12,050 nt of DNA from Candidatus Thorarchaeota archaeon. GTDB taxonomy: Archaea > Asgardarchaeota > Thorarchaeia > Thorarchaeales > Thorarchaeaceae. This document shows, piece by piece, positions 1 to 12,050 of the stretch (within the stretch, counting starts at the first letter, position 1; the number at the start of each line of letters is the position of its first letter). Under the pieces are notes generated by a model. That model ran no database searches and had not been told where the DNA came from. It saw only the letters and a list, made by a program, of their open reading frames with translations. The DNA is taken from assembly GCA_029858305.1 (NCBI GenBank), contig JAOUFI010000068.1, forward strand, positions 1 to 12,050. Reading direction: 5' to 3'. The translations under genes and the position numbers were made by a program.

Positions 1-81
1 TGACATACCATACCAACAATATTACCATACCGCTGACATGGCTCTAAGATAACTCTTAAAGGACAACTATTGGACGAAGGC

Positions 82-1230
82 ATGGAGACACCAGACAAGT
101 TGACGAAACGAAAAGACTCCAGTGTAGAAGTACAGAATACTTCTAAAGAAACTGCCCAGAAATCACCAAGAAAACGAGGTATCGAAGTTCCTAGTGCACA
201 TAGATTGGTTTTACGGGATGTAGGTTATCCTTTTCGAGTGAAAGGCGATCCCAAACCAATGGGTCTGGAGGTTGACAGTCTAGAATTATTTGCAGACTAT
301 GCAAGAGAACAATGGATGGGAACCATTGTACAGCAGGGCACTTATCTCTTTGATCGATATATCCTGCCAGATTACGCTTTTCAGGTTCAAGAGGTTGAAC
401 CTGAAGAATCAATTGTTTCTAAGAATACTAAAATCATTCTTGAATCCCCTACGGGTTCAACATTAGATGTCAAATTCCGATCAGTTACCCTTGAGAATGT
501 AATAGGCCACGAGTCAGTGAAACAGAAATGCAAGATAATCCTGGAATATCTTCGTCAACCGTCACGGTTTGGTGAATGGGCACCACGGGCTGTGTTGTTC
601 CATGGACTACCTGGTACTGGGAAAACAATGACAGCTCAAGCTGTAGCAAATGAAGCAGATGCAAGGATATTCTTGGCAAAAGCTTCAGATCTAATTGGTG
701 TCCATGTAGGTGATGGTGGGCGAAGAATAAGCGCGCTATTCGATGATGCTCGAAAGCACTCACCAAGTATCATTTTCATTGATGAACTTGATGCAATAGG
801 TCTAGCTCGGTCGTTCCAATCAATTCGTGGTGACGTATCTGAGGTAGTAACTGCCTTACTCGGGGAACTCGACCAAACCAGTGAGGAATCCGGAGTCGTC
901 GTAATCGGTGCGACTAATGCATTGCCTCTTATCGATCCTGCCATTAAAAACAGATTTGATACAGTCTTCGAGTTTCCTCTGCCAACATTAGAGGAGCGCT
1001 ATGATATTCTTCGATTATATGCTGAAAGGTTGCCACTCAAACTTGAGGCCGACCTGAAGGAAATTGCTCGAAGAACTGAAGGACTATCTGGGAGAGACCT
1101 TAGAGACCGTATACTAAAAGAGTCACTTCATACTGCAATTACTGATGGTGTGACTACTATATCCTCCGAAATCGTTCATAGAGTGCTGGACAAAATACAA
1201 CCAAAGAGTAGACCCACTTACACAATTTAA
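82..1230 (+). CDS. AMA-type archaeal AAA+ ATPase (COG1223-like; small N-domain plus a single AAA module)
   Basis: Walker A GLPGTGKT, Walker B IIFIDE, second region of homology ATNALPLIDPAIKNRFD, pore region RSFQSIRGDVSEVV. The N-domain carries GYPF (AMA GYPL-like motif) and FADYAREQW. The ORF opens at TTG 70; ATG 82 is the preferred start. Confidence 0.85.
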   Translation: METPDKLTKRKDSSVEVQNTSKETAQKSPRKRGIEVPSAHRLVLRDVGYPFRVKGDPKPMGLEVDSLELFADYAREQWMGTIVQQGTYLFDRYILPDYAFQVQEVEPEESIVSKNTKIILESPTGSTLDVKFRSVTLENVIGHESVKQKCKIILEYLRQPSRFGEWAPRAVLFHGLPGTGKTMTAQAVANEADARIFLAKASDLIGVHVGDGGRRISALFDDARKHSPSIIFIDELDAIGLARSFQSIRGDVSEVVTALLGELDQTSEESGVVVIGATNALPLIDPAIKNRFDTVFEFPLPTLEERYDILRLYAERLPLKLEADLKEIARRTEGLSGRDLRDRILKESLHTAITDGVTTISSEIVHRVLDKIQPKSRPTYTI

Positions 1231-1235
1231 TCAGT

Positions 1236-1799
1236 TTGACAATAAGGGTGAATGAAGCCTTGAGAATCATAATTGTCACTGGTATGCCCGGTGCGGGTAA
1301 AAGTGAGGTAGCCCAAGCTTTTCGAGATACTGGTATTCCTATAATAGTAATGGGGGATGTTGTACGCGATGAAACTCGAAAACGTGGCTTAGATGCAAAT
1401 CCTGAAAACACCCGGAAAGTCATGCTTGAGTTACGGGAAAGAAATGGTCTTGGTGCAATAGCTAAACACTGTCTTGATCATCTTCGCCGCCTTGAATCCG
1501 ATGTCATTGTCATTGAAGGGTGTAGGAGTATTGCTGAAATTGATGTTTTTGATGATTATGCTGATGAGGTGATTATAATCTGCGTTCATTCATCTCCAAA
1601 GGTGCGATATACTCGCCTGCGTGATAGAAATCGTGCAGATGCTCCTCCAACATGGGAAAATTTCAGAGAACGCGATATACGAGAAATCTCAGTAGGTCTT
1701 GGTGGCGTAATCGCACTTAGTGATATTATGCTGATTAATGAAGGCACGCTCGACAGTCTGCGTGTCATGTCAAAAGAATTAGCAACGAAGATGACCTAA
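1236..1799 (+). CDS. UPF0200/COG0237-family P-loop nucleotide kinase (often annotated dephospho-CoA kinase-like)
   Basis: N-terminal IIIVTGMPGAGKS, MGDVVR, IEGCRS, RYTRLRDRNRAD, and FRERDIREISVGLGGVIALSDIMLINEG. Adjacent to a UPF0201 gene as in other archaea. Start uncertain (TTG 1236, GTG 1248 or TTG 1260). Confidence 0.8.
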   Translation: MTIRVNEALRIIIVTGMPGAGKSEVAQAFRDTGIPIIVMGDVVRDETRKRGLDANPENTRKVMLELRERNGLGAIAKHCLDHLRRLESDVIVIEGCRSIAEIDVFDDYADEVIIICVHSSPKVRYTRLRDRNRADAPPTWENFRERDIREISVGLGGVIALSDIMLINEGTLDSLRVMSKELATKMT

Positions 1800-1800
1800 T

Positions 1801-2229
1801 ATGATAATCACTGTCAGATGTCTGGTTCATCCAACCGAAGATGTTGAAAGAGTAAAGGCATCAATAGAAACACATCTTGGTAAAATTCCAATAAAGGTTG
1901 TTGAACATAGTAAACTCATTGAGCTCACATCATCAAATGTGAATCGAGAAATCCTCTCTACTGTGCGTCAGTTAATTCATGAGAAACGAATACTTGCTGC
2001 AGTCCGTACAAGATTGCTGAAAAATTACAATGACTTAGATTATACAACAAGTATTCATCTTGACAAGCAAGCTGCCTATGTTGGAAAACTGAGAGTGGTA
2101 GATAATGATGTAGAAACACCCCCCTTAGGCTCTATTGAGATTCATATTGTCTTCGAAACAGGTCATCAGTTTGAAGAATTTCTTGATTGGTTTAGTCCAA
2201 GAACCAAAGATGGGAAAGTAATCACTTAG
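1801..2229 (+). CDS. UPF0201/COG1931 archaeal putative RNA-binding protein
   Basis: Family motifs VHPTEDVERVKASI, LDKQAAYVG, PPLGSI, FLDWFSPRTKDG; begins 1 nt after the kinase stop. Confidence 0.85.
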   Translation: MIITVRCLVHPTEDVERVKASIETHLGKIPIKVVEHSKLIELTSSNVNREILSTVRQLIHEKRILAAVRTRLLKNYNDLDYTTSIHLDKQAAYVGKLRVVDNDVETPPLGSIEIHIVFETGHQFEEFLDWFSPRTKDGKVIT

Positions 2230-3251
2230 AGCTTGACCGTCACAACTTCTCGAATAAGTCCGCTATGTACAATAATATTGATTTTGTATCCAATACTAAG
2301 ACCGGCATTTCGAATCATTTCTGAGAGTTCCATTTCGCTACTAGCACATATACATAGATTCTCTCCACCCGGTTGAAGGATAGAGGGAGCTTTCCTAAGT
2401 AGAGAGTCGAAAAGTTCCCTCGACTCTGCGCCTCTCGTCGAGCTGGACCGACCATAAGGTGGGTCGGTAACAATATGGTCTACAGTCTGAACAGGGAGGT
2501 ATAGAGCATCAGCTTGTATTATAGAATACTTTGAATTAATCCCACTTAGATTCACTCTTGCTCCTTCTAACAAGGTCCAATTTTTGTCTATACCTATTAC
2601 CAAGGCTCCAATATATGAAGCCTCACAAAGAATTCCACCTCCACCACAAAATGGATCTAGTACAGTATTACCTGGTCTGACTCCAGCCAAGTTACACATT
2701 GTTCTTGCTAATGTACTATTCATCATACTTGGATGAAAGAAGGGTTTCTTTCCTGGTTCCCTCGCTCGTAACAAGCGTCTGAGCTTGGATTCAATGGATT
2801 TGCATACTAGAAATCGCCCAGCTACTATTATTACGAGAATGTGTGTATCAGGAGATTTCAATTCTACTTTTGCTCTAGTGACATTTCGAATATGTGCTCC
2901 CAATTTTTTTTCTATTTCGATTCTCTTTTGATGGTCATATACACTCTCAATACACATTGTTCTCACTGAGAATTTATCAGAGGAAAACACATTATCCTTC
3001 CAGCACTCATCTGAGATATCATCAATAATAGACTCTTCATGAATGAATTCACCAATAAGGATACCAGCTCGTTGGACATGTGCTGCTCTCTCCAACAGAA
3101 ACCCTGTTGGATTAACCGCTGACTTCAGTTTTGCTATACGTCCTAACCATGTGATTCTAATATTGACTGGATATAACTTTACCAATGCTTCTATCTCAGC
3201 TCTTGCTAGTTCCAGATTCTCACCAGACACTTGGACAAAGTAATTGATCAA
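2226..3251 (-). CDS. trm11: tRNA (guanine-10-N2)-methyltransferase, Trm11/TrmG10 family (THUMP plus Rossmann methyltransferase)
   Basis: SGENLELARAEI N-terminus, THUMP elements (FSVR...VELKSPD), KPFFHPSMM, VLDPFCGGGGILCEA SAM-binding motif, IVTDPPYGRSS catalytic motif. The ORF-track start at 3311 overlaps the GPN gene, so in-frame TTG 3251 is more likely. Its stop overlaps the convergent UPF0201 stop (2226-2229). Confidence 0.9.
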   Translation of the reverse strand: MINYFVQVSGENLELARAEIEALVKLYPVNIRITWLGRIAKLKSAVNPTGFLLERAAHVQRAGILIGEFIHEESIIDDISDECWKDNVFSSDKFSVRTMCIESVYDHQKRIEIEKKLGAHIRNVTRAKVELKSPDTHILVIIVAGRFLVCKSIESKLRRLLRAREPGKKPFFHPSMMNSTLARTMCNLAGVRPGNTVLDPFCGGGGILCEASYIGALVIGIDKNWTLLEGARVNLSGINSKYSIIQADALYLPVQTVDHIVTDPPYGRSSSTRGAESRELFDSLLRKAPSILQPGGENLCICASSEMELSEMIRNAGLSIGYKINIIVHSGLIREVVTVKL

Positions 3252-3261
3252 GTAGGCATCA

Positions 3262-4026
3262 CTACTCGTATATGTTATCTCCACCAGAAAAGATACGCTG
3301 TATCTCTCCATAGAGAAGGTCGAACCCGGTCATATCCTTAGATGACACCGGAACAGTCACACTCGTAGATCCAATATTTCCAAGCATATCCAGAATTGAT
3401 TTAGAGTATTCTCTGACAAGTCCCTCTGAAGACTGATCAAGTGCTTCTTCAAGTAGATGTACTTCTGATCCCCAATCTACAATCTCCTCAATCTCATCTT
3501 CCATAAGAATATCGGTCTTACTGAGTATATTCAGCTGCGGCAGACCAAATCGAATATTGATTGATAGCCCTAGGAGCATAGAAGAAAGATATCCTATAGG
3601 AGTTTTTGCAATATTAGAATCTAGAAGATAGAGGGATAGTGAAGGATCATCGCCTCTTAAGCCTGAAACCATTAAAGGACCTGAATTTCGATAGGCAAAA
3701 AGCTCCATTTGCCCCGGGCAGTCCACAAGGACATAATCTCTCTCAGATTCAATGATTTCTTCTCGCAATTCATTAACACTGCCTACTCCCATATCTAGGG
3801 ATGCAACAAGAGCTCCGTTAGGACCAAGTCCAAAGTTATTCATCACCTCTCCATAATCAACATACTCCCGAATATCCACATCACTTGTGTATGGTGGACT
3901 CTCAACACCAGGATCAATGTTAACAACTGTTACACTCAAATCTGATTCTACTAACCATTTTTCAAGTGATGCAGTAAGAAGCGATTTTCCTGAACCTGCA
4001 GTTCCAACTAGAAATATGAAGAACAT
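3262..4026 (-). CDS. GPN-loop GTPase (archaeal GPN, PAB0955-like)
   Basis: GTAGSGKS P-loop, NIDPG, diagnostic LGPNGAL, DCPGQMELF, LSKTD. ATG 4026 preferred over TTG 4038. Confidence 0.92.
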   Translation of the reverse strand: MFFIFLVGTAGSGKSLLTASLEKWLVESDLSVTVVNIDPGVESPPYTSDVDIREYVDYGEVMNNFGLGPNGALVASLDMGVGSVNELREEIIESERDYVLVDCPGQMELFAYRNSGPLMVSGLRGDDPSLSLYLLDSNIAKTPIGYLSSMLLGLSINIRFGLPQLNILSKTDILMEDEIEEIVDWGSEVHLLEEALDQSSEGLVREYSKSILDMLGNIGSTSVTVPVSSKDMTGFDLLYGEIQRIFSGGDNIYE

Positions 4027-4038
4027 TGAAAGAACCAA

Positions 4039-4144
4039 TCAGGAAAATGGAATCTCCCCTCTATGAGTTCTTCGGTAGGTTAATACCACGATTTTAAACC
4101 ATTCTACACAAGTCTTATCTATAATCTAGGAAAGGAGGTGTGAT
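4039..4144. promoter_or_regulatory. Divergent promoter region between the GPN gene and the HTH regulator, with a strong Shine-Dalgarno for the regulator
   Basis: Head-to-head genes; AT-rich TATA-like boxes TTTTAAA 4092-4098 and TTATCTATA 4115-4123; AGGAGGTG at 4133-4140, 4 nt before ATG 4145. Confidence 0.55.
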
Positions 4145-4888
4145 ATGGACTCGAGCGAACCGCTACAGAGGCTTGCGGAGGCAATGGCAGGCGAAATCTG
4201 TCTTGCAGAGGTTGATCCGGGTTCAGTGATGCGAAGGTGGCGTGAGCGTTTTCATATCTCGCAGAAGAGCCTTGCCAAATACCTCAATGTTTCTCCTTCG
4301 GTCATCAGCGACTATGAGAGCGGAAGAAGAAAGTCTCCCAGAGTTGAAACTATCAAGCGTTTTGTTGAAGGTCTTATAGAAATGGATGCAGCTGAGGGCA
4401 GTCGTGTTGCTGTAGCTCTTGAAAAACTAATAGCACCCGAGATTGCATCTGATGCGATTCTCGATAGCCGCGAGTTTGGATTTCCAATCCCTGCAAGACT
4501 ACTAGTTGAATACCTAGAGTGCAAAATACTCACTCATAATGGTTTACTTGATCGAGATATTTATGGTTATACAGCCCTAGATAGTATCAAGGCAATTGTA
4601 AGCCTTACACCTCAGCAACTTCTTCGACTCTATGGTGGAACAACTCAGCGCATAGCTATTCTTACAAATGTGTCTACAGGCAGGTCTCCTATGGTAGCTA
4701 TCAAGGCAAGCCAAATTGGTACTTCGATGGCAGTGAAACCTGCTGCTGTCATTCTTCAAGGTGTGAAAGAACTTGACCCTTTAGCTGTGAAGATTGCTGA
4801 TAGTATTCACCTTCCACTATGTGTATCTGAAATCAAGTCAGCTGAGATTCTGATACATACAGTTAGATCATTTAATCCTGAGATGTAA
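4145..4888 (+). CDS. Archaeal Xre/Cro-type HTH transcriptional regulator (COG1709-like, C-terminal DRTGG-like domain)
   Basis: HTH MRRWRERFHISQKSLAKYLNVSPSVISDYESGRRKSP; C-domain GYTALDSIKAI, TNVSTGRSPMVAIK, KPAAVIL. Confidence 0.85.
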   Translation: MDSSEPLQRLAEAMAGEICLAEVDPGSVMRRWRERFHISQKSLAKYLNVSPSVISDYESGRRKSPRVETIKRFVEGLIEMDAAEGSRVAVALEKLIAPEIASDAILDSREFGFPIPARLLVEYLECKILTHNGLLDRDIYGYTALDSIKAIVSLTPQQLLRLYGGTTQRIAILTNVSTGRSPMVAIKASQIGTSMAVKPAAVILQGVKELDPLAVKIADSIHLPLCVSEIKSAEILIHTVRSFNPEM

Positions 4889-4900
4889 TTTCTGAATGAG

Positions 4901-6205
4901 ATGATTGAAATGGAGTTTGTAATGGAAATCAATGATCCGATTCATGATTTCATTGGATTGACCGATGTTGAGGCTAAGATAGTCAACTCTGAAACCTATC
5001 AAAGACTCCGAAGAATCAAACAACTTTCCGGTGGTCATTTTGTATATCCGAGTGCTGAACATACACGATTTGCACACTGTATTGGAGTTATGCATCTAGC
5101 AGGTCGTACTGGGAAGCATTTGCTGAACAAGCTTGAACTGGGAGACGATGTTCTTCAAGATGTACGTGTAGCTGGCCTTCTTCATGACCTCGGTCATGGA
5201 CCTTTTAGTCATGTCTTCGAAGAATCTCTCATCGAAAATAGAGGATGGAATCATGAAGATGTTACCGAATGGCTTGTTTTAGAGAGTGAAATCGGAGATA
5301 TTCTTGAAGCTGTTGGAATTTCTAAGAAACGAATTTCCGATTTGGTAAGGGGTCGAAGAACCAGTAAGAAAGATGCTGTTGTGAGCGGCATAGTCGCTGG
5401 ACAGGTAGACGCAGATAAGATGGATTATCTAATTCGAGACTCTTTCTACTGTGGTGTGAACTACGGACTAGTTGATATTCATCGCTTAATTGACAGCCTT
5501 GAAGTTTCAAAAGATTATCAGCTGGAGTTTAGCATTGCAGCGAGAGGTGCACTCGAGGCTTTCCTTGTGGCGCGTTATGAAATGTTTCTCAATGTCTATT
5601 ATCATAAGACAGTTCGAAGTGTTGAAGTGATGCTTGTAAAACTCATCAATGCTGCAAACAATGTTCTACATCTCACCAGCTTCAAGACCCCTGAAGAGTT
5701 CCTAGTATTAGATGATATGTCTTTGGTATCAATGATGCGTGGTATTGATCCAACAGAATCAGATTATGCAAGAGAAGCATCAATCATGATGAATCTCTTA
5801 GATTCAAGAGTTCTGTATAAATCAGTATTCGAAAAAGTGCTACATACTCAAGATAGGTTTGTTTCTAAGGTTCTCACAAAGAGAAAAGTGCGTGAAAGTA
5901 TAGAAGAGGAGATAGCATCAATTGCTGGAGTTGGTAATCACGAAGTCATTGTTGATGTACCCACGCTGCCTTCTGTTCCATACAATCCTCATCAGCTAAA
6001 TCCGATGGAGATAGCAATCTTTGAAATTGTAGATGGCAAAAAGGTCTCTCATAACCTCTCAGAATACTCCAATATTGCTGAAATGATGAAAGGATATCTT
6101 GATGTAATCCGTGTTTATACCTTTGATAAAAATCGGGCTAAAGTCGGTCGTGCCGCTCGTGAGGTCTTTCAAGAAGTACCAGATACTGCCCTAATCCATA
6201 TGTGA
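4901..6205 (+). CDS. HD-superfamily phosphohydrolase, SAMHD1-like dNTP triphosphohydrolase family (COG1078)
   Basis: INDPIH, YQRLRRIKQL, HTRFAHCIG, LLHDLGHGPFSHVFE, DADKMDYLIRDS, VYYHKTVR. Start may be ATG 4910 or 4922 (GGAG at 4912-4915). Confidence 0.88.
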   Translation: MIEMEFVMEINDPIHDFIGLTDVEAKIVNSETYQRLRRIKQLSGGHFVYPSAEHTRFAHCIGVMHLAGRTGKHLLNKLELGDDVLQDVRVAGLLHDLGHGPFSHVFEESLIENRGWNHEDVTEWLVLESEIGDILEAVGISKKRISDLVRGRRTSKKDAVVSGIVAGQVDADKMDYLIRDSFYCGVNYGLVDIHRLIDSLEVSKDYQLEFSIAARGALEAFLVARYEMFLNVYYHKTVRSVEVMLVKLINAANNVLHLTSFKTPEEFLVLDDMSLVSMMRGIDPTESDYAREASIMMNLLDSRVLYKSVFEKVLHTQDRFVSKVLTKRKVRESIEEEIASIAGVGNHEVIVDVPTLPSVPYNPHQLNPMEIAIFEIVDGKKVSHNLSEYSNIAEMMKGYLDVIRVYTFDKNRAKVGRAAREVFQEVPDTALIHM

Positions 6206-6336: not shown

Positions 6337-7284
6337 TTGAGCGACGAAATGACTGAAACCCTGCAAAACATAAAGGCTATCACAGGCGTTGAAAATGTCG
6401 TGCTAATCCAGAAGGATGGACTTCCTGTAGCAAGCGCAGGTGTATGGTTTAGTAAGGAAGAAGTCTTTGCAGTAGCCTCTTCAACATGTGCTATCTTTGG
6501 AGTGGCTAAGTTAATCCATGGCGATTTCAAATATCTATTGATGGAATCAGAAACTTCCAAGGTATTTCTAGCATCTCTTCCCAATGATTCTGACTACTTT
6601 CTCACTGTGACTACCGCTCCGCGTGTAAATCTAGCAGCCCTGTTTATTGAGATGAAGGATAACCTTTCACGACTAGCTTTTCTACTAAAGCAGCATATTG
6701 ATGGAAGACTACCCCCACTCCGGTCGTATAGTAGTGATGAAACTCGTCGGGTACTTGAAGGATTCGCCGTAGCTGAAGGTCGCGATACAACCTATGGGAT
6801 ATCACGCTCAGTCATTTCACTAGATAGATCCCAGGCCTTAAGTCTGAGAGCCCTTCTCCGCCAAGTTCATGACTGCATTCCTAACATAGGATCAGTGTTT
6901 TTATCGCTTAGTGGTGGCGTTCGAGTATCACTAGAAGGATTTACCAATGATAGGCTTGCTGCTATGTCCTTTGCACTTCACGACGCATCTGAACGTGTTG
7001 TAAGAACGCTCCGCAATAGCTCTCTGCAGACAGTACTTTGTGAAACTGACACTATCCGTCACTTCATTTATGCTGTGCCTAACGGTGTATTCAGCCTGTG
7101 GGTAGATAAGGATAGTCAAAAACTTGGTCTAATGAGATTGTTATTGAAGCATTACATCGATGAGATTAGAAGAGTTCTGGTTTCCGTGTCTATGGTCAAA
7201 CCAGCTGTTCCTGACGACTTGAAGGAGCTGCTTCTTGCAGGTGGTTCTGATGGAGGACTAATGTTAACGAGGAGAAACAAATGA
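6337..7284 (+). CDS. Tandem Roadblock/LC7 (MglB/LAMTOR-like) domain protein, two divergent domains
   Basis: Domain 1 (aa ~5-117): LQNIKAITGVENVVLIQKDGLPVAS...NLAALFIEMK. Domain 2 (aa ~168-281): LLRQVHDCIPNIGSVFLSLSGG...DRLAAMSFALHDASERV...KLGLMRLLLK. Both follow the roadblock pattern. Start TTG 6337 or ATG 6349. Confidence 0.82.
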   Translation: MSDEMTETLQNIKAITGVENVVLIQKDGLPVASAGVWFSKEEVFAVASSTCAIFGVAKLIHGDFKYLLMESETSKVFLASLPNDSDYFLTVTTAPRVNLAALFIEMKDNLSRLAFLLKQHIDGRLPPLRSYSSDETRRVLEGFAVAEGRDTTYGISRSVISLDRSQALSLRALLRQVHDCIPNIGSVFLSLSGGVRVSLEGFTNDRLAAMSFALHDASERVVRTLRNSSLQTVLCETDTIRHFIYAVPNGVFSLWVDKDSQKLGLMRLLLKHYIDEIRRVLVSVSMVKPAVPDDLKELLLAGGSDGGLMLTRRNK

Positions 7285-8201
7285 CTTACTCTATATTACA
7301 CATGATTGAGCTGATGGATGAACAGTTTCCATTATTACTACATTCAGTATTGGAACGGATACCTGTAATTGTAGCAGGCGAAGATATCGAACTCGTTGAT
7401 GACATAGCAGAGAGTCTTACGACACTTAGTCCTCACCGGCACAAACTTGTCTTTTGGCGTGACTTCACATCAGAATCCGAAATATTATCGGTTTGGGAAG
7501 AAGAAAAACACAACTATGAAGTGAGCAGGACTGTTGTATGCGGTCTCTCTGGAAATCTCCGACTAGCTCTTGATAGGATCACAAGATTCACCGGATGGAC
7601 ATTAGCAATTCCCTTGGGTTCAACAGTTTTAGGTATTCAAGTAAATGAAAAAATTCTTGGGGATGTCATTTCGCATGTTCTCCGTAACACTAGCAACTGT
7701 GGAATACTTAGAGTCAGTTCACCATCATTGATGAACTTCTCACTTATCAAACCAATAGATAGTAACTATAATGTGGAAAAGAAGATAGTCAGTAAAATCC
7801 TAGTTCGTAAAAAGCAATCTCTTGAGAGGATCAGACGTCTCCTCACAAAATCTCTGAGAGGAATGAATGTGTCTGAGCATATTATTAGCGCAGTATTGAA
7901 GCTAGACGATGAATCTGAAAAACTGACGCAAGATGTTTTTGAGGAGGAAGTGAATAACTATGTTCATGCTGCAAGGAGGGCGGTAACACTTCTCTCTCGC
8001 ATTAGACTTGCCAGAGAGCTCGGCGCATCAACGACATTAACTGAAAGAAACTTGTATGAAGCAATTGGATGGGAAGGTGGAGAACTGCCCGATTTGATTC
8101 AGTTTATCAGGGCAGAATGGCACGAGGACTTCTCTGATTGTGTCAAACTTGGAACAATCTCTGGTCTTGGGGCTTGGGTTGATAGTATGTGGGGAACATG
8201 A
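7281..8201 (+). CDS. Uncharacterised protein, probable stand-alone DENN domain of folliculin C-terminal type
   Basis: Clean 306-aa ORF with ATGA overlap and GAGGAG SD (7269-7274). The N-terminus SILHMIELMDEQFPLLLHSVLERIPVIVAGEDIELVDDIAESLTTLSP fits the DENN-core pattern, and the C-terminal half looks helical. The gene itself is well supported; the family call is by eye. Confidence 0.6.
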   Translation: MTYSILHMIELMDEQFPLLLHSVLERIPVIVAGEDIELVDDIAESLTTLSPHRHKLVFWRDFTSESEILSVWEEEKHNYEVSRTVVCGLSGNLRLALDRITRFTGWTLAIPLGSTVLGIQVNEKILGDVISHVLRNTSNCGILRVSSPSLMNFSLIKPIDSNYNVEKKIVSKILVRKKQSLERIRRLLTKSLRGMNVSEHIISAVLKLDDESEKLTQDVFEEEVNNYVHAARRAVTLLSRIRLARELGASTTLTERNLYEAIGWEGGELPDLIQFIRAEWHEDFSDCVKLGTISGLGAWVDSMWGT

Positions 8202-8219: not shown

Positions 8220-8801
8220 GTGATAATTGACTATGGCAATCGAACTGTTGGTCTTAAGATAGTATTCTTTGGACCTGCCATGAGTGGAAAAACAACTGCA
8301 ATACGTTGGCTTTTCTCAACACTTGATTATGCCGACAAGCTCACATCGATAGAGAATACCGTTGGAAGGACCATGTTCTGTGATTTTGGTACAATCCCAT
8401 TTCCACTCAGCGCGAGTTGGACGATTAATGCGCATATCTGGTCTGCAACAGGTCAGGACTTCTATAGGTCCACAAGAGAGGTCGTACTTGTAGGAGCAGA
8501 TGGTGTTATTTTCATGGCGGACTCCCAAAGCAACTTGCTTGATGAAGACTTGGCAAGCTGGAATGAATTGATGTCGATGATTTTAGAAGAAGAGCGGCCA
8601 CTCCCAGTTGTTATCTGTCTTAATAAACAAGACTTACCTGCTGCTGTACAAGAGGAACAACTCCGAGCATATTTCAGACTTCCATTATCGGTTCCTGTTT
8701 TTCAGAGTATTGCTAAAGATGGTCATAATATCCTTGAAGCTTTTCAGTACATTTTCCAAGCAGCCATGAGAGCCAGTGTCATTGCAAAGCCAATTTCCTG
8801 A
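8220..8801 (+). CDS. mglA: MglA-like small Ras-superfamily GTPase
   Basis: N-terminal IDYGNRTVGLKIVFF, G1 GPAMSGKTT, G2 GRTMFCDF, G3 SATGQ, GADGVIFMADSQ, G4 NKQD, G5 SIA. GTG start preceded by AGGGGG (8205-8210). Confidence 0.88.
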   Translation: MIIDYGNRTVGLKIVFFGPAMSGKTTAIRWLFSTLDYADKLTSIENTVGRTMFCDFGTIPFPLSASWTINAHIWSATGQDFYRSTREVVLVGADGVIFMADSQSNLLDEDLASWNELMSMILEEERPLPVVICLNKQDLPAAVQEEQLRAYFRLPLSVPVFQSIAKDGHNILEAFQYIFQAAMRASVIAKPIS

Positions 8802-8918: not shown

Positions 8919-10601
8919 ATGTTGAGTTCTATTAATGTAGGAACGAAATTTGTTTTCATAACTGGTGGTGTTCTATCTGGTATTGGTAAAGGTGTAACAA
9001 CAGCATCAATTGCAAAGCTTTTCCAGTTCCGCGGCTATAGTGTTCGAACAATCAAGATTGACCCCTATCTCAATATAGATCCCGGCACTTTGAATCCAAT
9101 CGAGCATGGTGAAGTTTTTGTGACCGACCAGACTTGGACATTTAGTCCTGTGGAAGGTTTTGATTTCTTAATCTCTGAGATTGATTTGGATTTTGGTACT
9201 TATGAACGATTCACTGGTATGGAAGTTCATCCGTCTCAAAATATAACATCTGGACAAATCTACATGTCTGTCATAATGGAGGAAAGAAAGGGTGGATTCC
9301 TCGGAAGAACGGTCCAAATAATACCTCATATTACAGATAGAATCAAGCAGAGAATTTGGGATGTTGTTCAAAAAGAACCAATACCTGATATCCTTCTAGT
9401 CGAAATCGGTGGCACCGTAGGCGATATAGAGGCCATGCCCTTCCTTGAAGCAGTACGACAACTCATCAGGGAAGTTGGGAGAGATCGAGTCGCAGCTGTT
9501 CATGTCACTTTAGTTCCTTACGTAAAATCAGTTGGAGAGTTCAAGACAAAACCGACCCAACACAGTGTACGAACTCTTCAAAGTCTGGGGATACAACCAG
9601 ACATAATTATTTGTAGATCAGAAAAACCACTGACAGCATCCGCAAAAGAAAAAATAGCACTATTCTGTAACGTTCCTGAGGCACAGGTTGTTTCAAATCC
9701 TGATATATCAGTCATCTACCAGCTTCCATTATCGTTTGAAGATGAAGGTCTTGGGGAAATCTTAGTCAATCATTTTAGACTTGAGTCGCGCGTTCCCAAT
9801 ACAGATGTATGGCAAAAAATCGTGCAATCATTTGAAAATCCCTCTGAAAAAGTAACAATTGCTATGCCTGGGAAATACACTATGTTAGGAGATTCCTATA
9901 AGAGCATCAATGAAGCATTAGCTCATGCGGCTGCAGCTTGTGGTGCTCAGGTAGAGATAAAGTGGATTGAAACAGATGAGCGAAGCACGGAAGAATGTCT
10001 TCTTGAAGATCTCTCTGATGTCGATGGTGTTCTACTCACACCGGGTTTTGGAGAACGTGGAGTCGAAGGTATGATTAGTGCTGCTATTGTTGCTTTAGAA
10101 TCTAAAATTCCTCTTTTGGGAATCTGTTATGGTGCCCAATTATCAACAGTTGCGTTCGCGCGACGTGTTATGGGTTGGAAGGGTGCTAATACCACGGAAG
10201 TCGATGCAGATAGTCTCTATCCAGTGGTCGATTTAATGGATGATCAGAAGCTAACCGAGGACAAGGGCGGAACAATGAGACTTGGAGGACATGCAGTTTA
10301 TATTGTTAAGGGGTCTCGTCTGCACGAAATTTATGGAACGGATATAGTTCGAGAAAGATTTAGGCATCGATTCCATCTTATTGAAAGATACCTCAAAAAA
10401 ATGCGTGAACGAGGTCTTAGTGTATCAGCATATGATGCTAGTAAGCGGATAATCAACGCAATAGAACTTACTGATCACCCCTTTTGGATTGGTGTTCAAT
10501 TTCATCCTGAGTTCAAATCTAGACCCGGAGAACCACATCCACTTTACTTGGGTCTAATAAGAGCTGCTCTTGCATACAAGAAAGTGAGAGTGACATCATA
10601 G
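8919..10601 (+). CDS. pyrG: CTP synthase (divergent)
   Basis: [59 protein letters not shown]; glutaminase triad GICYG and FHPEF. Confidence 0.97.
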
Positions 10602-11767
10602 TGGACAAGAATCTCGACAAGCTATTGTCTCAACTCGTTAAAGAAATAGAGCGAGTCGAGGTGACAAAAAACCGATTTGGTGAAGTCTTACGGAATATTA
10701 AAGGAATAATCAATCTTGCTAAGTTTCCAGCTGTTTCATCTGCCACTGTTGAAAAAGGGCTCACAAAAAAGGTGGAACCAACTATTCTATCTGGGCTGCG
10801 AATAGCTGGAATTGATGGTGGATTGGTCCGACGCCAGTTTCGATCTATGGATTTAATTTTAGTAAGAGGTATTGCAGTTATATTTCAATTTGGCCCAGAA
10901 GAGGGTCCCAATGTTGAATTCTTTCCAGATCCCTTTCCTGAACCCCAAATACGACCTATGATGTTAACATTATCTGGAACGGAGTTGGATCAGCTTGCAT
11001 CATTAGAAAGAGTTGCTGCCGAACTCAGAGTGACTCTTGCAGTTCTTGATAAATTCCATACCGACTTAATTCTAGTAGACGGCTCATTATTCTATCATCC
11101 TCGAGACCGCCCCCAGATGGGATCGGCAGTCTACGAGAAATTCCAAGAGGTACTATCTCTGTACAAACAATTGTACAACAAGACTCGTAAGAAAGGGACA
11201 ACTCTTGTTGGTATTGTGAAGGATAGCAGATCAAGCAAAGTGACTAGTATTCTGGGTGATATCCTCCCGCATATTATACGTGATCCAGCAATATTTGAGA
11301 TGATGCAAGGAGTAGACTATCGATGGTTACTCAAAATCTCTCGAGATTGTGATATCTTAGACACGTTCTTGAATGAGGGCGAGCGATCTTTTGTTTTCAA
11401 ATATTCTTCAGAGCTACAAAACACCAGTAATTCACTACCAGACGATTTGACGAGTTGGGCGTCATCTATTTGGGTAACATACCTAAAGACCGCTCGGGAT
11501 GACTTACCACTAAGAATAGAGATTCTTACTGACCCCGACTCAGTCGACGAAGTATGGAAGATTGACAAAGCACTAGCTGCAATTCTTCCTCTCTCTTGGC
11601 AACATCCTGAATATGGTATTCCCACCCCAATTCTCGAAGCAGATACAAGAGCAAGGATAACAGCTAATGAAACAAGCATGGTAATAGATCGACTGATGGC
11701 TCTATCTGGACTCACCTATACAACCCTCGAGAAAAGACGTTCAAGAAATCCTTTTGGAGGTAACTAA
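10601..11767 (+). CDS. nurA: NurA-family nuclease
   Basis: IAGIDGG (D72), ILVDGSL (D160), VGIVKDS, PLRIE, and YGIPTPILEADTRARI. GTG start overlaps the pyrG TAG by 1 nt. Followed by a herA-like ORF. Confidence 0.88.
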   Translation: MDKNLDKLLSQLVKEIERVEVTKNRFGEVLRNIKGIINLAKFPAVSSATVEKGLTKKVEPTILSGLRIAGIDGGLVRRQFRSMDLILVRGIAVIFQFGPEEGPNVEFFPDPFPEPQIRPMMLTLSGTELDQLASLERVAAELRVTLAVLDKFHTDLILVDGSLFYHPRDRPQMGSAVYEKFQEVLSLYKQLYNKTRKKGTTLVGIVKDSRSSKVTSILGDILPHIIRDPAIFEMMQGVDYRWLLKISRDCDILDTFLNEGERSFVFKYSSELQNTSNSLPDDLTSWASSIWVTYLKTARDDLPLRIEILTDPDSVDEVWKIDKALAAILPLSWQHPEYGIPTPILEADTRARITANETSMVIDRLMALSGLTYTTLEKRRSRNPFGGN

Positions 11768-11768
11768 A

Positions 11769-12050
11769 ATATCAACAGACTATCCATCTACAGCACGACT
11801 AGGAACCGTTGTTTCTACAGATTCAGGTCCTAATGTCATGGAATTTTCATTCGTAGTGGAAGGTGACCCCAAAGATGTAGTTGCCAGGCGTGGGGAGTTC
11901 ATCTCAGTAGTTACCGATAACGGAACCGTGATTGCGAGAGTACAAGATCTCGTTCGAACAAATAGATATTACCAACATGCAGAAGCAGTGAGAGAGTACC
12001 AATCACGAGGAGAGCCGCTACGCTCCATATTTCCCACGGATCGTTGGCAG
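11769..12050 (+). CDS. herA: HerA-family helicase/ATPase, N-terminal HAS-barrel region (partial, runs off the window; absent from the ORF track)
   Basis: Open frame to the window end: (I)STDYPSTARLGTVVSTDSGPNVMEFSFVVEGDPKDVVARRGEFISVVTDNGTVIARVQDLVRTNRYY...IFPTDRWQ. HAS-barrel pattern (GxVV, FxFVV, RGEFI, IARV); directly follows nurA. Start ambiguous (ATA 11769 or TTG 11754). Confidence 0.75.
   Translation, partial: MSTDYPSTARLGTVVSTDSGPNVMEFSFVVEGDPKDVVARRGEFISVVTDNGTVIARVQDLVRTNRYYQHAEAVREYQSRGEPLRSIFPTDRWQ

What the first reader, a model, noticed from the sequence alone, without database searches (positions are those of the whole stretch)
7281..8201. Stand-alone folliculin-type DENN domain lacking the N-terminal longin: a 'split folliculin'?
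Seen: aa 4-51 SILHMIELMDEQFPLLLHSVLERIPVIVAGEDIELVDDIAESLTTLSP. By eye this aligns with the start of the human folliculin C-terminal DENN domain as I recall it ([49 protein letters not shown]; recalled, needs verification), sharing HM, F-x-x-L, VL, VI, D-[IV]-[ED]-LV, E-x-L-x-T-x-x-P. Later segments IRRLLTKSLRGMNVSEHIISAVL and NLYEAIGWEGGELPDLIQF also echo the folliculin C-terminal helices. The protein starts directly at the DENN core with no uDENN/longin. Inference: the translationally coupled upstream roadblock pair (a longin-related fold) supplies that part in trans, resembling a pre-fusion state of longin-DENN proteins.
Basis: partly seen in the sequence, partly recalled or inferred. Interest (0 to 1): 0.8.

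Follow-up and report, generated by a model that had tools for sequence, protein, structure and literature searches.

The report
Longin-less DENN protein of Asgard archaea
This Asgard archaeal gene encodes a protein predicted to have the fold of eukaryotic DENN/folliculin GTPase regulators but lacking their front (longin) domain, and it sits in a widely conserved three-gene cluster with a double-roadblock protein and an MglA-type GTPase that likely work together as one switch; a cluster of this make-up was already described in 2020.

Summary
The ORF (7281-8201, 306 aa, Thorarchaeota) is real. Its AlphaFold model (pLDDT 90) matches DENN-family chains best (DENND10 Z 13.6, folliculin 12.7, C9orf72 11.3), from residue 1, so the central and downstream DENN parts are present and the longin is not. 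It is DENN-like, not specifically folliculin. It is the middle gene of an operon, tandem roadblock / DENN / MglA-type GTPase, found in ten of 30 Asgard families sampled. Liu et al. (bioRxiv 2020) already describe such an operon and Heimdall longin-DENN fusions, and this scan found it before on other DNA. 'Split folliculin' is only partly supported: no roadblock-DENN fusion was found, and the Asgard fusions use a different, longin-like N-terminus. The roadblock pair looks like a single-chain MglB. A side lead: after DENN proteins, the nearest folds are pilus/secretion ATPases, in register with their Walker A loop, hinting at where the DENN fold came from. Verdict: already known, interest 0.27.

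The parts
6337..7284 (+). Tandem (double) roadblock protein, 315 aa, TTG start; predicted single-chain MglB-like pseudo-dimer
   Evidence: Pfam Robl_LC7 E 1.6e-9, two stretches; halves 1-122 and 160-287 align with each other over 111 columns, probability 78; model matches MglB 6hjm Z 12.8, rmsd 1.8, 118 aligned, tied with other roadblocks
7281..7284 (+). ATGA overlap of the roadblock stop and the DENN start (likely translational coupling)
   Evidence: Sequence; 4-base overlap in 77 of 79 Thor loci that hold both genes, 1-base overlap in 2
7281..8201 (+). Stand-alone DENN-fold protein, 306 aa (the finding)
7281..7760 (+). Central DENN alpha/beta domain (about aa 1-160), P-loop-NTPase-like topology without a Walker A motif
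   Evidence: Secondary structure of the model; DENN chains and P-loop ATPases both align here
7770..8126 (+). Helical downstream DENN part (about aa 164-282)
   Evidence: Model helices 164-280; folliculin 345-558 aligns with model 1-282
8160..8192 (+). C-terminal helix (aa 294-304) ending in an invariant Trp, beyond the part that matches DENN chains; low confidence in the monomer model, possible partner-binding tail (inference)
   Evidence: W304 invariant in 62 of 62; pLDDT about 48
8220..8801 (+). MglA-type small GTPase, 193 aa, GTG start, with R50, T51 and Q79 matching MglA R53, T54 and Q82
   Evidence: PDB sequence search: MglA E 2e-28 to 1e-26, next Arf 4e-8 and Rab7 1e-7; the three residues invariant in 62 of 62

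Best explanation
The protein has a predicted DENN fold without a longin domain, is the middle gene of a conserved roadblock-DENN-GTPase operon of Asgard archaea, and likely serves as the accessory subunit of an MglA/MglB-type switch. In this model the tandem roadblock protein folds into a single-chain equivalent of the MglB dimer and binds the GTPase (inferred from MglA/MglB); the GTPase supplies its own catalytic arginine (R50, shown conserved; function inferred), so no folliculin-type arginine finger is needed; the DENN protein docks on this complex and tunes nucleotide exchange or the place where the switch acts, as cDENN/dDENN domains do by adding GTPase contacts or scaffolding partners in eukaryotes (inferred). 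Shown: genes, order, folds by prediction, conserved residues, co-occurrence. Not shown: any binding or activity.
For: DENN fold: six of the top six chains of 48,161 are DENN family; Foldseek's top five are folliculin, E 1.2e-3 to 3.5e-3. Gene order roadblock-DENN-GTPase in 38 of 41 loci from other Asgard families by a strict spacing rule; of the other three, one is in order with an over-long ORF call, one is cut by a contig end, one is a true exception. In 80 Thor loci the roadblock is upstream in 79 and the GTPase downstream in 77, the rest end at contig ends. Tandem roadblock and stand-alone DENN occur in the same ten families (168 and 163 of 182 genomes) and the tandem roadblock in 0 of 118 genomes of the other 20 families. 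GTPase is MglA-type with R53/T54/Q82 equivalents. Roadblock model matches MglB. In the one genome where the operon is broken (G138) roadblock and GTPase stay adjacent and the DENN gene lies elsewhere, as expected if MglB-MglA is the core. MglB binds MglA 2:1 and MglA brings the catalytic Arg itself (PMC8336837, passages).
Against: No binding or activity test exists here. The G138 case also shows that the DENN gene need not be co-transcribed. Foldseek gave no match at E <= 0.001 and structural identities are only 10-17%. The own genome has a second MglA-type gene next to a single roadblock without any DENN gene (G000:C186), so such switches can exist without DENN. Kin genomes are not independent, so the co-occurrence counts overstate.
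Confidence: 0.6

Rival explanations
1. Split folliculin / split DENN module (first reader; close to Liu et al.'s GEF proposal): the roadblock pair takes the place of the uDENN longin, forms one tripartite module with the DENN protein in trans and acts as exchange factor; this is the state before the longin-DENN fusion.
For: Overlapping genes and matching distribution. Roadblock and longin are related by circular permutation and bind GTPases alike (PMC3521125, passages); the MglB dimer resembles the uDENN dimer of C9orf72-SMCR8. Families rich in N-terminally fused DENN proteins (f5 28/28, f22 21/21, f27 11/11) lack the tandem roadblock, a near-complementary pattern.
Against: No roadblock-DENN fusion: listed matches lie in open frames of at most 385 aa (DENN, 150 rows listed, 35 not) and 397 aa (roadblock, 150 listed, 32 not); two searches of longer proteins found none, which is weak evidence. 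The one fusion protein compared matches the DENN alignment (probability 91) but not the roadblock alignment (0.2); 0 of 30 fusion loci hold anything matching the tandem roadblock. G112 carries the operon and two fusions side by side. The fusions share only the first 50-170 residues with this family, so they are paralogues, not fused orthologues.
Confidence: 0.2
2. The DENN protein is an effector: a dead relative of pilus/secretion ATPases that carries the MglA signal to a type IV pilus-like motor, as MglA controls pili in Myxococcus.
For: A PF00437 secretion ATPase gene lies within 27 kb of the DENN gene in 15 of 25 genomes with listed coordinates (hand count); T2SSF genes beside it in L221 and L223, a prepilin peptidase in L222. 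Structural and register similarity to GspE/FlaI. MglA activates type IV pili through effectors in M. xanthus (PMC13408092, passages).
Against: The genes between operon and ATPase vary and are mostly housekeeping (FtsZ, Cdc6, TFIIB-like, aminotransferase), so the linkage may be an old chromosomal block; 9 of 25 have the ATPase on another contig and 1 at 63 kb. PF00437 matches occur in 60 of 61 Asgard genomes, with or without the operon. The sequence similarity is weak (probability 15).
Confidence: 0.12
3. The DENN protein works apart from its two neighbours and the cluster is kept only by co-regulation.
For: The gene is detached in G138.
Against: Same order over ten families with otherwise different flanks and matching presence/absence.
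Confidence: 0.05

Closest known systems
[quoted passage not shown]
   Same: Same three gene types, conserved across Asgard lineages; the paper also reports Heimdall proteins with folliculin's domain order and proposes a GEF role.
   Different: Here the GTPase tests as MglA-type, not Rab-like, and the roadblock protein is a tandem pair; the module was found in ten of 30 families sampled, not in all. Their Fig. 5b, Supplementary Table 7 and the Nature version could not be seen, so identity rests on the text.
Folliculin (FLCN) C-terminal domain; C9orf72, SMCR8, DENND10, DENND1 cDENN+dDENN
   Same: Fold over model 1-282: DENND10 Z 13.6 (rmsd 4.2, 187 aligned), FLCN 12.7 (3.7, 188), C9orf72 11.3 (4.1, 204), SMCR8 10.9 (4.0, 195), DENND1A 9.7 (5.5, 191).
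   Different: No longin/uDENN, hence no FLCN R164-type arginine finger; neighbour GTPase is not Rag, Rab or Arf; extra conserved C-terminal helix; no Pfam match above cut-off.
MglA/MglB of Myxococcus xanthus and Thermus thermophilus
   Same: GTPase closest to MglA with R53/T54/Q82 equivalents; roadblock partner gene upstream whose fold matches MglB.
   Different: Two roadblock domains on one chain instead of a homodimer; a DENN-fold gene inserted between the two.
Asgard (Heimdall-type) longin-DENN fusion proteins (Liu et al. 2020; GP-motif longins in PMC12290439, passages)
   Same: Homologous DENN start; L134 falls in a mostly Heimdall cluster with 23% Pfam Folliculin.
   Different: They carry their own N-terminal domain, have no MglA-type or tandem roadblock neighbour within about 1.5 kb (0 of 30 roadblock, 1 of 30 a weak GTPase match), and are the better candidates for folliculin's forerunner.

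Membership tests
DENN module (uDENN-cDENN-dDENN) | central alpha/beta cDENN domain | tested here: met
   Predicted model aligns with DENND10, FLCN, C9orf72, SMCR8, DENND1 from residue 1
DENN module (uDENN-cDENN-dDENN) | helical dDENN domain | tested here: met
   Alignments run to model residue 281-289 and FLCN 555-558
DENN module (uDENN-cDENN-dDENN) | N-terminal longin (uDENN) on the same chain | tested here: not met
   DENN match starts at residue 1-3; upstream ORF ends in a stop that overlaps the start; orthologues are about 270-310 aa
DENN module (uDENN-cDENN-dDENN) | GEF or GAP activity on a small GTPase | not testable with these tools
   Needs biochemistry
Folliculin/FLCN-FNIP | Pfam Folliculin_C above its cut-off | tested here: not met
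   None for the window protein; best family member 20.2 bits against 27
Folliculin/FLCN-FNIP | closer to FLCN than to other DENN proteins | tested here: inconclusive
   Foldseek ranks FLCN first; VIA ties DENND10 13.6 and FLCN 12.7-12.8; Atlas neighbours are mixed: C9orf72-like, SPA, Folliculin_C, DENND11
Folliculin/FLCN-FNIP | longin domain with GAP arginine finger | tested here: not met
   No longin on the chain; the upstream partner is roadblock-type
Folliculin/FLCN-FNIP | Rag GTPase as partner | tested here: not met
   The operon GTPase is MglA-type; partners elsewhere in the genome were not tested
Asgard roadblock-DENN-GTPase operon (Liu et al. 2020) | roadblock gene, DENN gene and small GTPase gene together | tested here: met
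Asgard roadblock-DENN-GTPase operon (Liu et al. 2020) | conserved across Asgard lineages | tested here: met
   Ten of 30 families, 163 of 300 genomes for the DENN gene; order kept in 38 of 41 loci
Asgard roadblock-DENN-GTPase operon (Liu et al. 2020) | same asCOGs / loci as their Fig. 5b; GTPase labelled 'Rab-like' | not testable with these tools
   Figure and supplements not held; the label differs from the MglA result, but their text says only that the family is distinct from Rag
MglA/MglB module | MglA-family GTPase with intrinsic Arg finger (R53), T54, Q82 | tested here: met
MglA/MglB module | adjacent roadblock gene giving a roadblock dimer | tested here: met
   Two roadblock repeats on one chain; their packing as an MglB-like dimer was not inspected
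MglA/MglB module | roadblock dimer binds the GTPase and acts as GAP | not testable with these tools

The most novel reading that the evidence does not exclude
Probability: 0.2. Interest if true: 0.75.

Novelty: already known. Interest (0 to 1): 0.27.

Why it matters
DENN proteins regulate Rab, Rag and Arf GTPases throughout eukaryotic membrane traffic and nutrient signalling, and their origin is open. A three-protein prokaryotic module of small soluble proteins makes it testable whether a DENN domain already acted on a GTPase before eukaryotes. The operon itself is in print since 2020; what this work adds is that the GTPase is MglA-type with its own arginine finger, that the roadblock pair is better read as MglB than as a missing longin, and a weak lead that the DENN fold descends from secretion ATPases.

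Tried and rejected
Sequence-only routes to DENN failed: Pfam on the protein (only Sec2p, E 0.11), PDB phmmer, PDB with the family profile (ferritin coiled-coil noise), with P0133 and with the fusion alignment. Searches for longer fused forms of the DENN and of the roadblock alignment found none (weak evidence by the tool's own note). The two long hits of the representatives search (P0166, P0189) are repeat proteins and were dropped as noise; P0137 (400 aa) has an internal insertion, not a fused domain. Complex prediction of roadblock + DENN + GTPase was not available, so there is no verdict on binding. No folliculin-type longin appears among the 50 listed matches of the roadblock model; an unlisted family is not excluded. 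The sigma-70 promoter/terminator scan gave chance levels (7 against 6.4; 2 against 1.5) and does not fit archaea. RNA runs: six short contigs from two runs of one study cover parts of all three genes, one crossing the roadblock/DENN junction (7208-7525), but contigs show neither transcription nor one transcript; not used as evidence. The Nature 2021 version of Liu et al. is not held. No tree was built, so the direction fusion versus fission is not determined.

Full report
1. The observation. The ORF at 7281-8201 (+) encodes 306 aa and holds the quoted segments. It is under purifying selection (against L002: 104 synonymous, 18 non-synonymous codon changes; five other orthologues alike). Named close relatives are Thorarchaeota. 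Upstream, a 315-aa ORF (6337-7284) overlaps its start by ATGA; 18 bases downstream starts a 193-aa GTPase (8220-8801).

2. Is it DENN? Not by plain sequence search: Pfam and PDB give nothing relevant for the protein. The ESM Atlas lists clusters with C9orf72-like (12% of members), SPA, Folliculin_C (22%) and DENND11 families at 0.90-0.94 and warns that no single family is singled out. The AlphaFold2 model (46 sequences, pLDDT 90, pTM 0.86) settles it: among 48,161 chains the first six are DENND10 (Z 13.6, rmsd 4.2, 187 aligned), folliculin twice (12.7, 188), C9orf72 (11.3), SMCR8 (10.9) and DENND1A (9.7), all from model residue 1-3 to 282-287 (one search agrees). Foldseek ranks five folliculin chains first at E 1.2e-3 to 3.5e-3, none at or under 0.001. 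So cDENN and dDENN are present, the longin is absent, and the protein is DENN-like rather than specifically folliculin.

3. The neighbours. The upstream protein has two roadblock repeats (Pfam E 1.6e-9; halves align, probability 78); its model (pLDDT 78) matches MglB (Z 12.8, rmsd 1.8) tied with other roadblocks. The GTPase is MglA-type: E 2e-28 to MglA against 4e-8 to Arf and 1e-7 to Rab7; R50, T51 and Q79 align with MglA R53, T54, Q82 and are invariant in 62 of 62 orthologues. MglA R53 is described as an intrinsic arginine finger (PMC10933270, passages), and MglB binds MglA 2:1 (PMC8336837, passages).

4. Conservation. In 80 Thor loci the roadblock gene is upstream in 79 and the GTPase downstream in 77; the misses are contig ends. 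In 300 other Asgard genomes of 30 families the family profile matches 172: 163 of 182 genomes in ten families, nearly all strongly, and 9 weakly in three other families. The tandem roadblock is found in 168 of the same 182 and in 0 of the other 118. I fetched 41 loci outside the window's family (chosen by hand from the listed rows to span families): 38 show roadblock-DENN-GTPase by a strict spacing rule, one more is in order with an over-long ORF call, one is cut by a contig end, and one (G138) is broken, with roadblock and GTPase left adjacent elsewhere. Kin are not independent, and absence means not found in the genomes searched.

5. The 'split folliculin' idea. The weak matches are 310-400-aa proteins with the DENN start at residue 140-220, behind another domain. 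A profile of seven of them matches all genomes of f5 (28/28), f22 (21/21) and f27 (11/11), families without the tandem roadblock; L134 falls in a mostly Heimdall Atlas cluster with Pfam Folliculin in 23%; 12 of 30 have a GP in the first 60 residues, recalling the GP motif described for GAP-type longins (PMC12290439, passages). This near-complementary spread fits a fused/unfused contrast. But the fused partner is not the tandem roadblock: the one fusion compared matches the DENN alignment (probability 91) and not the roadblock alignment (0.2); none of 30 fusion loci matches the roadblock profile; no listed frame is long enough for a roadblock-DENN fusion; longer-protein searches found none (weak). 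G112 has both forms. Roadblock and longin are related folds (PMC3521125, passages), so an analogy remains, but the roadblock pair is more simply the MglB of the MglA next door. Complex prediction, the direct test, was not available.

6. Mechanism. Most likely (0.6) an MglA/MglB-type switch with a DENN accessory subunit: single-chain roadblock pseudo-dimer as GTPase platform and GAP, GTPase with its own arginine, DENN protein docking on the complex to tune exchange or location. Genes, order, predicted folds and conserved residues are shown; binding and activities are inferred. Rivals: split module acting as GEF (0.2), effector towards a pilus motor (0.12), unrelated passenger (0.05).

7. Two side leads. 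(a) An earlier scan note (e1-5584415) pointed to pili. A PF00437 ATPase lies within 27 kb of the DENN gene in 15 of 25 genomes (hand count; three further operon-bearing genomes had no listed DENN coordinates and were left out; one more is at 63 kb, nine are on other contigs, including the own genome). T2SSF and prepilin peptidase genes accompany it in some, but so do Cdc6, FtsZ and other housekeeping genes, and such ATPases occur in 60 of 61 genomes. (b) Right after the DENN chains come GspE and FlaI (Z 9.4, 9.3) over model 1-230, longer and higher than other P-loop proteins (Z <= 7.9, to about 160; PilB-type 3jc8 8.0 to 226). A profile of 24 Asgard secretion ATPases aligns with residues 10-78 at probability 15, with G33 on the Walker A glycine; singly, 19 of 24 fall in that register against 6 of 57 other Walker-A proteins of the own genome, though only one of the 24 (32.3) scores well above the best control (20.0-23.5). 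The ATPases are kin, so this is a lead only. A general NTPase resemblance was noted for folliculin and played down (PMC3438538, passage; PMC3521125); a search for DENN/folliculin with VirB11, PilT, FlaI or TadA listed 15 of 31 papers, none containing DENN or folliculin.

8. What is known. Liu et al. (bioRxiv 10.1101/2020.10.19.343400; section 10 read whole) predict an operon conserved in most Asgard archaea of a roadblock-superfamily protein, a small GTPase and a DENN protein, note Heimdall proteins with folliculin's domain order, and propose a GEF role. Their figure, supplements and the Nature version could not be seen; these may already hold the MglA assignment or the tandem structure. Searches for Asgard with DENN, folliculin, MglA or roadblock showed no experimental study of this operon in the held library; PMC13408092 (passages) models a Thorarchaeota MglA-MglB pair, whether this one I could not tell. 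Eight earlier reports of this scan on other genomes reach the same verdict; I had found the paper before that look-up, and they are not independent support.

9. Verdict. Observation confirmed; interpretation partly supported; already known. Interest 0.27. Most novel reading not excluded: DENN arose from a dead secretion ATPase recruited into an MglA/MglB pilus switch (probability 0.2, interest 0.75 if true).

Noticed in passing
window 7281-7970 (aa 1-230 of the DENN protein): After the six DENN-family chains the best folds are the archaeal secretion ATPases GspE (Z 9.4, rmsd 3.8, 181 aligned) and FlaI (9.3), covering model 1-230, while other P-loop proteins stop near residue 160 at Z <= 7.9. 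Profile alignment puts G33 on the Walker A glycine in 19 of 24 Asgard secretion ATPases against 6 of 57 other Walker-A proteins of the own genome; scores are weak.
   Followed up: partly
L221-L229: A secretion (PF00437) ATPase gene, sometimes with T2SSF or prepilin peptidase genes, lies 5-27 kb from the operon in 15 of 25 genomes with listed coordinates; the block also holds housekeeping genes.
   Followed up: partly
L115 4454-5350 and L231 1501-3121 (G138): Operon broken: DENN gene alone beside pyruvate formate lyase; roadblock and GTPase adjacent on another contig.
   Followed up: yes
L116 and L159 (G240); L132, L137, L139 (G112): G240 has two complete copies of the operon; G112 has the operon plus two N-terminally fused DENN proteins.
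   Followed up: partly
L112 2380-3066 (also L113, L114, L118, L120, L130): In family f9 a second small GTPase (Pfam Arf E 1e-17) faces the operon from the opposite strand.
   Followed up: no
G000:C186:998-1959 and G000:C47:6656-7534: The own genome has a second MglA-type gene followed by a single roadblock gene, and a third MglA-type domain inside a 292-aa frame.
   Followed up: no
L065 4001-4922: One Thor locus has a frameshift in the DENN gene, perhaps an assembly error.
   Followed up: no
alignment A2, first roadblock domain: Orthologues of families f9 and f24 carry an insertion of about 20 residues in the first roadblock domain.
   Followed up: no
window 70-6205 and 8919-12050: Flanks are ordinary archaeal genes by Pfam: AAA+ PRS2-type ATPase, small kinase, RNA-binding protein, THUMP methyltransferase, GPN-loop GTPase, HTH protein, HD hydrolase, CTP synthase, NurA; the last ORF runs off the end and was not tested.
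   Followed up: partly
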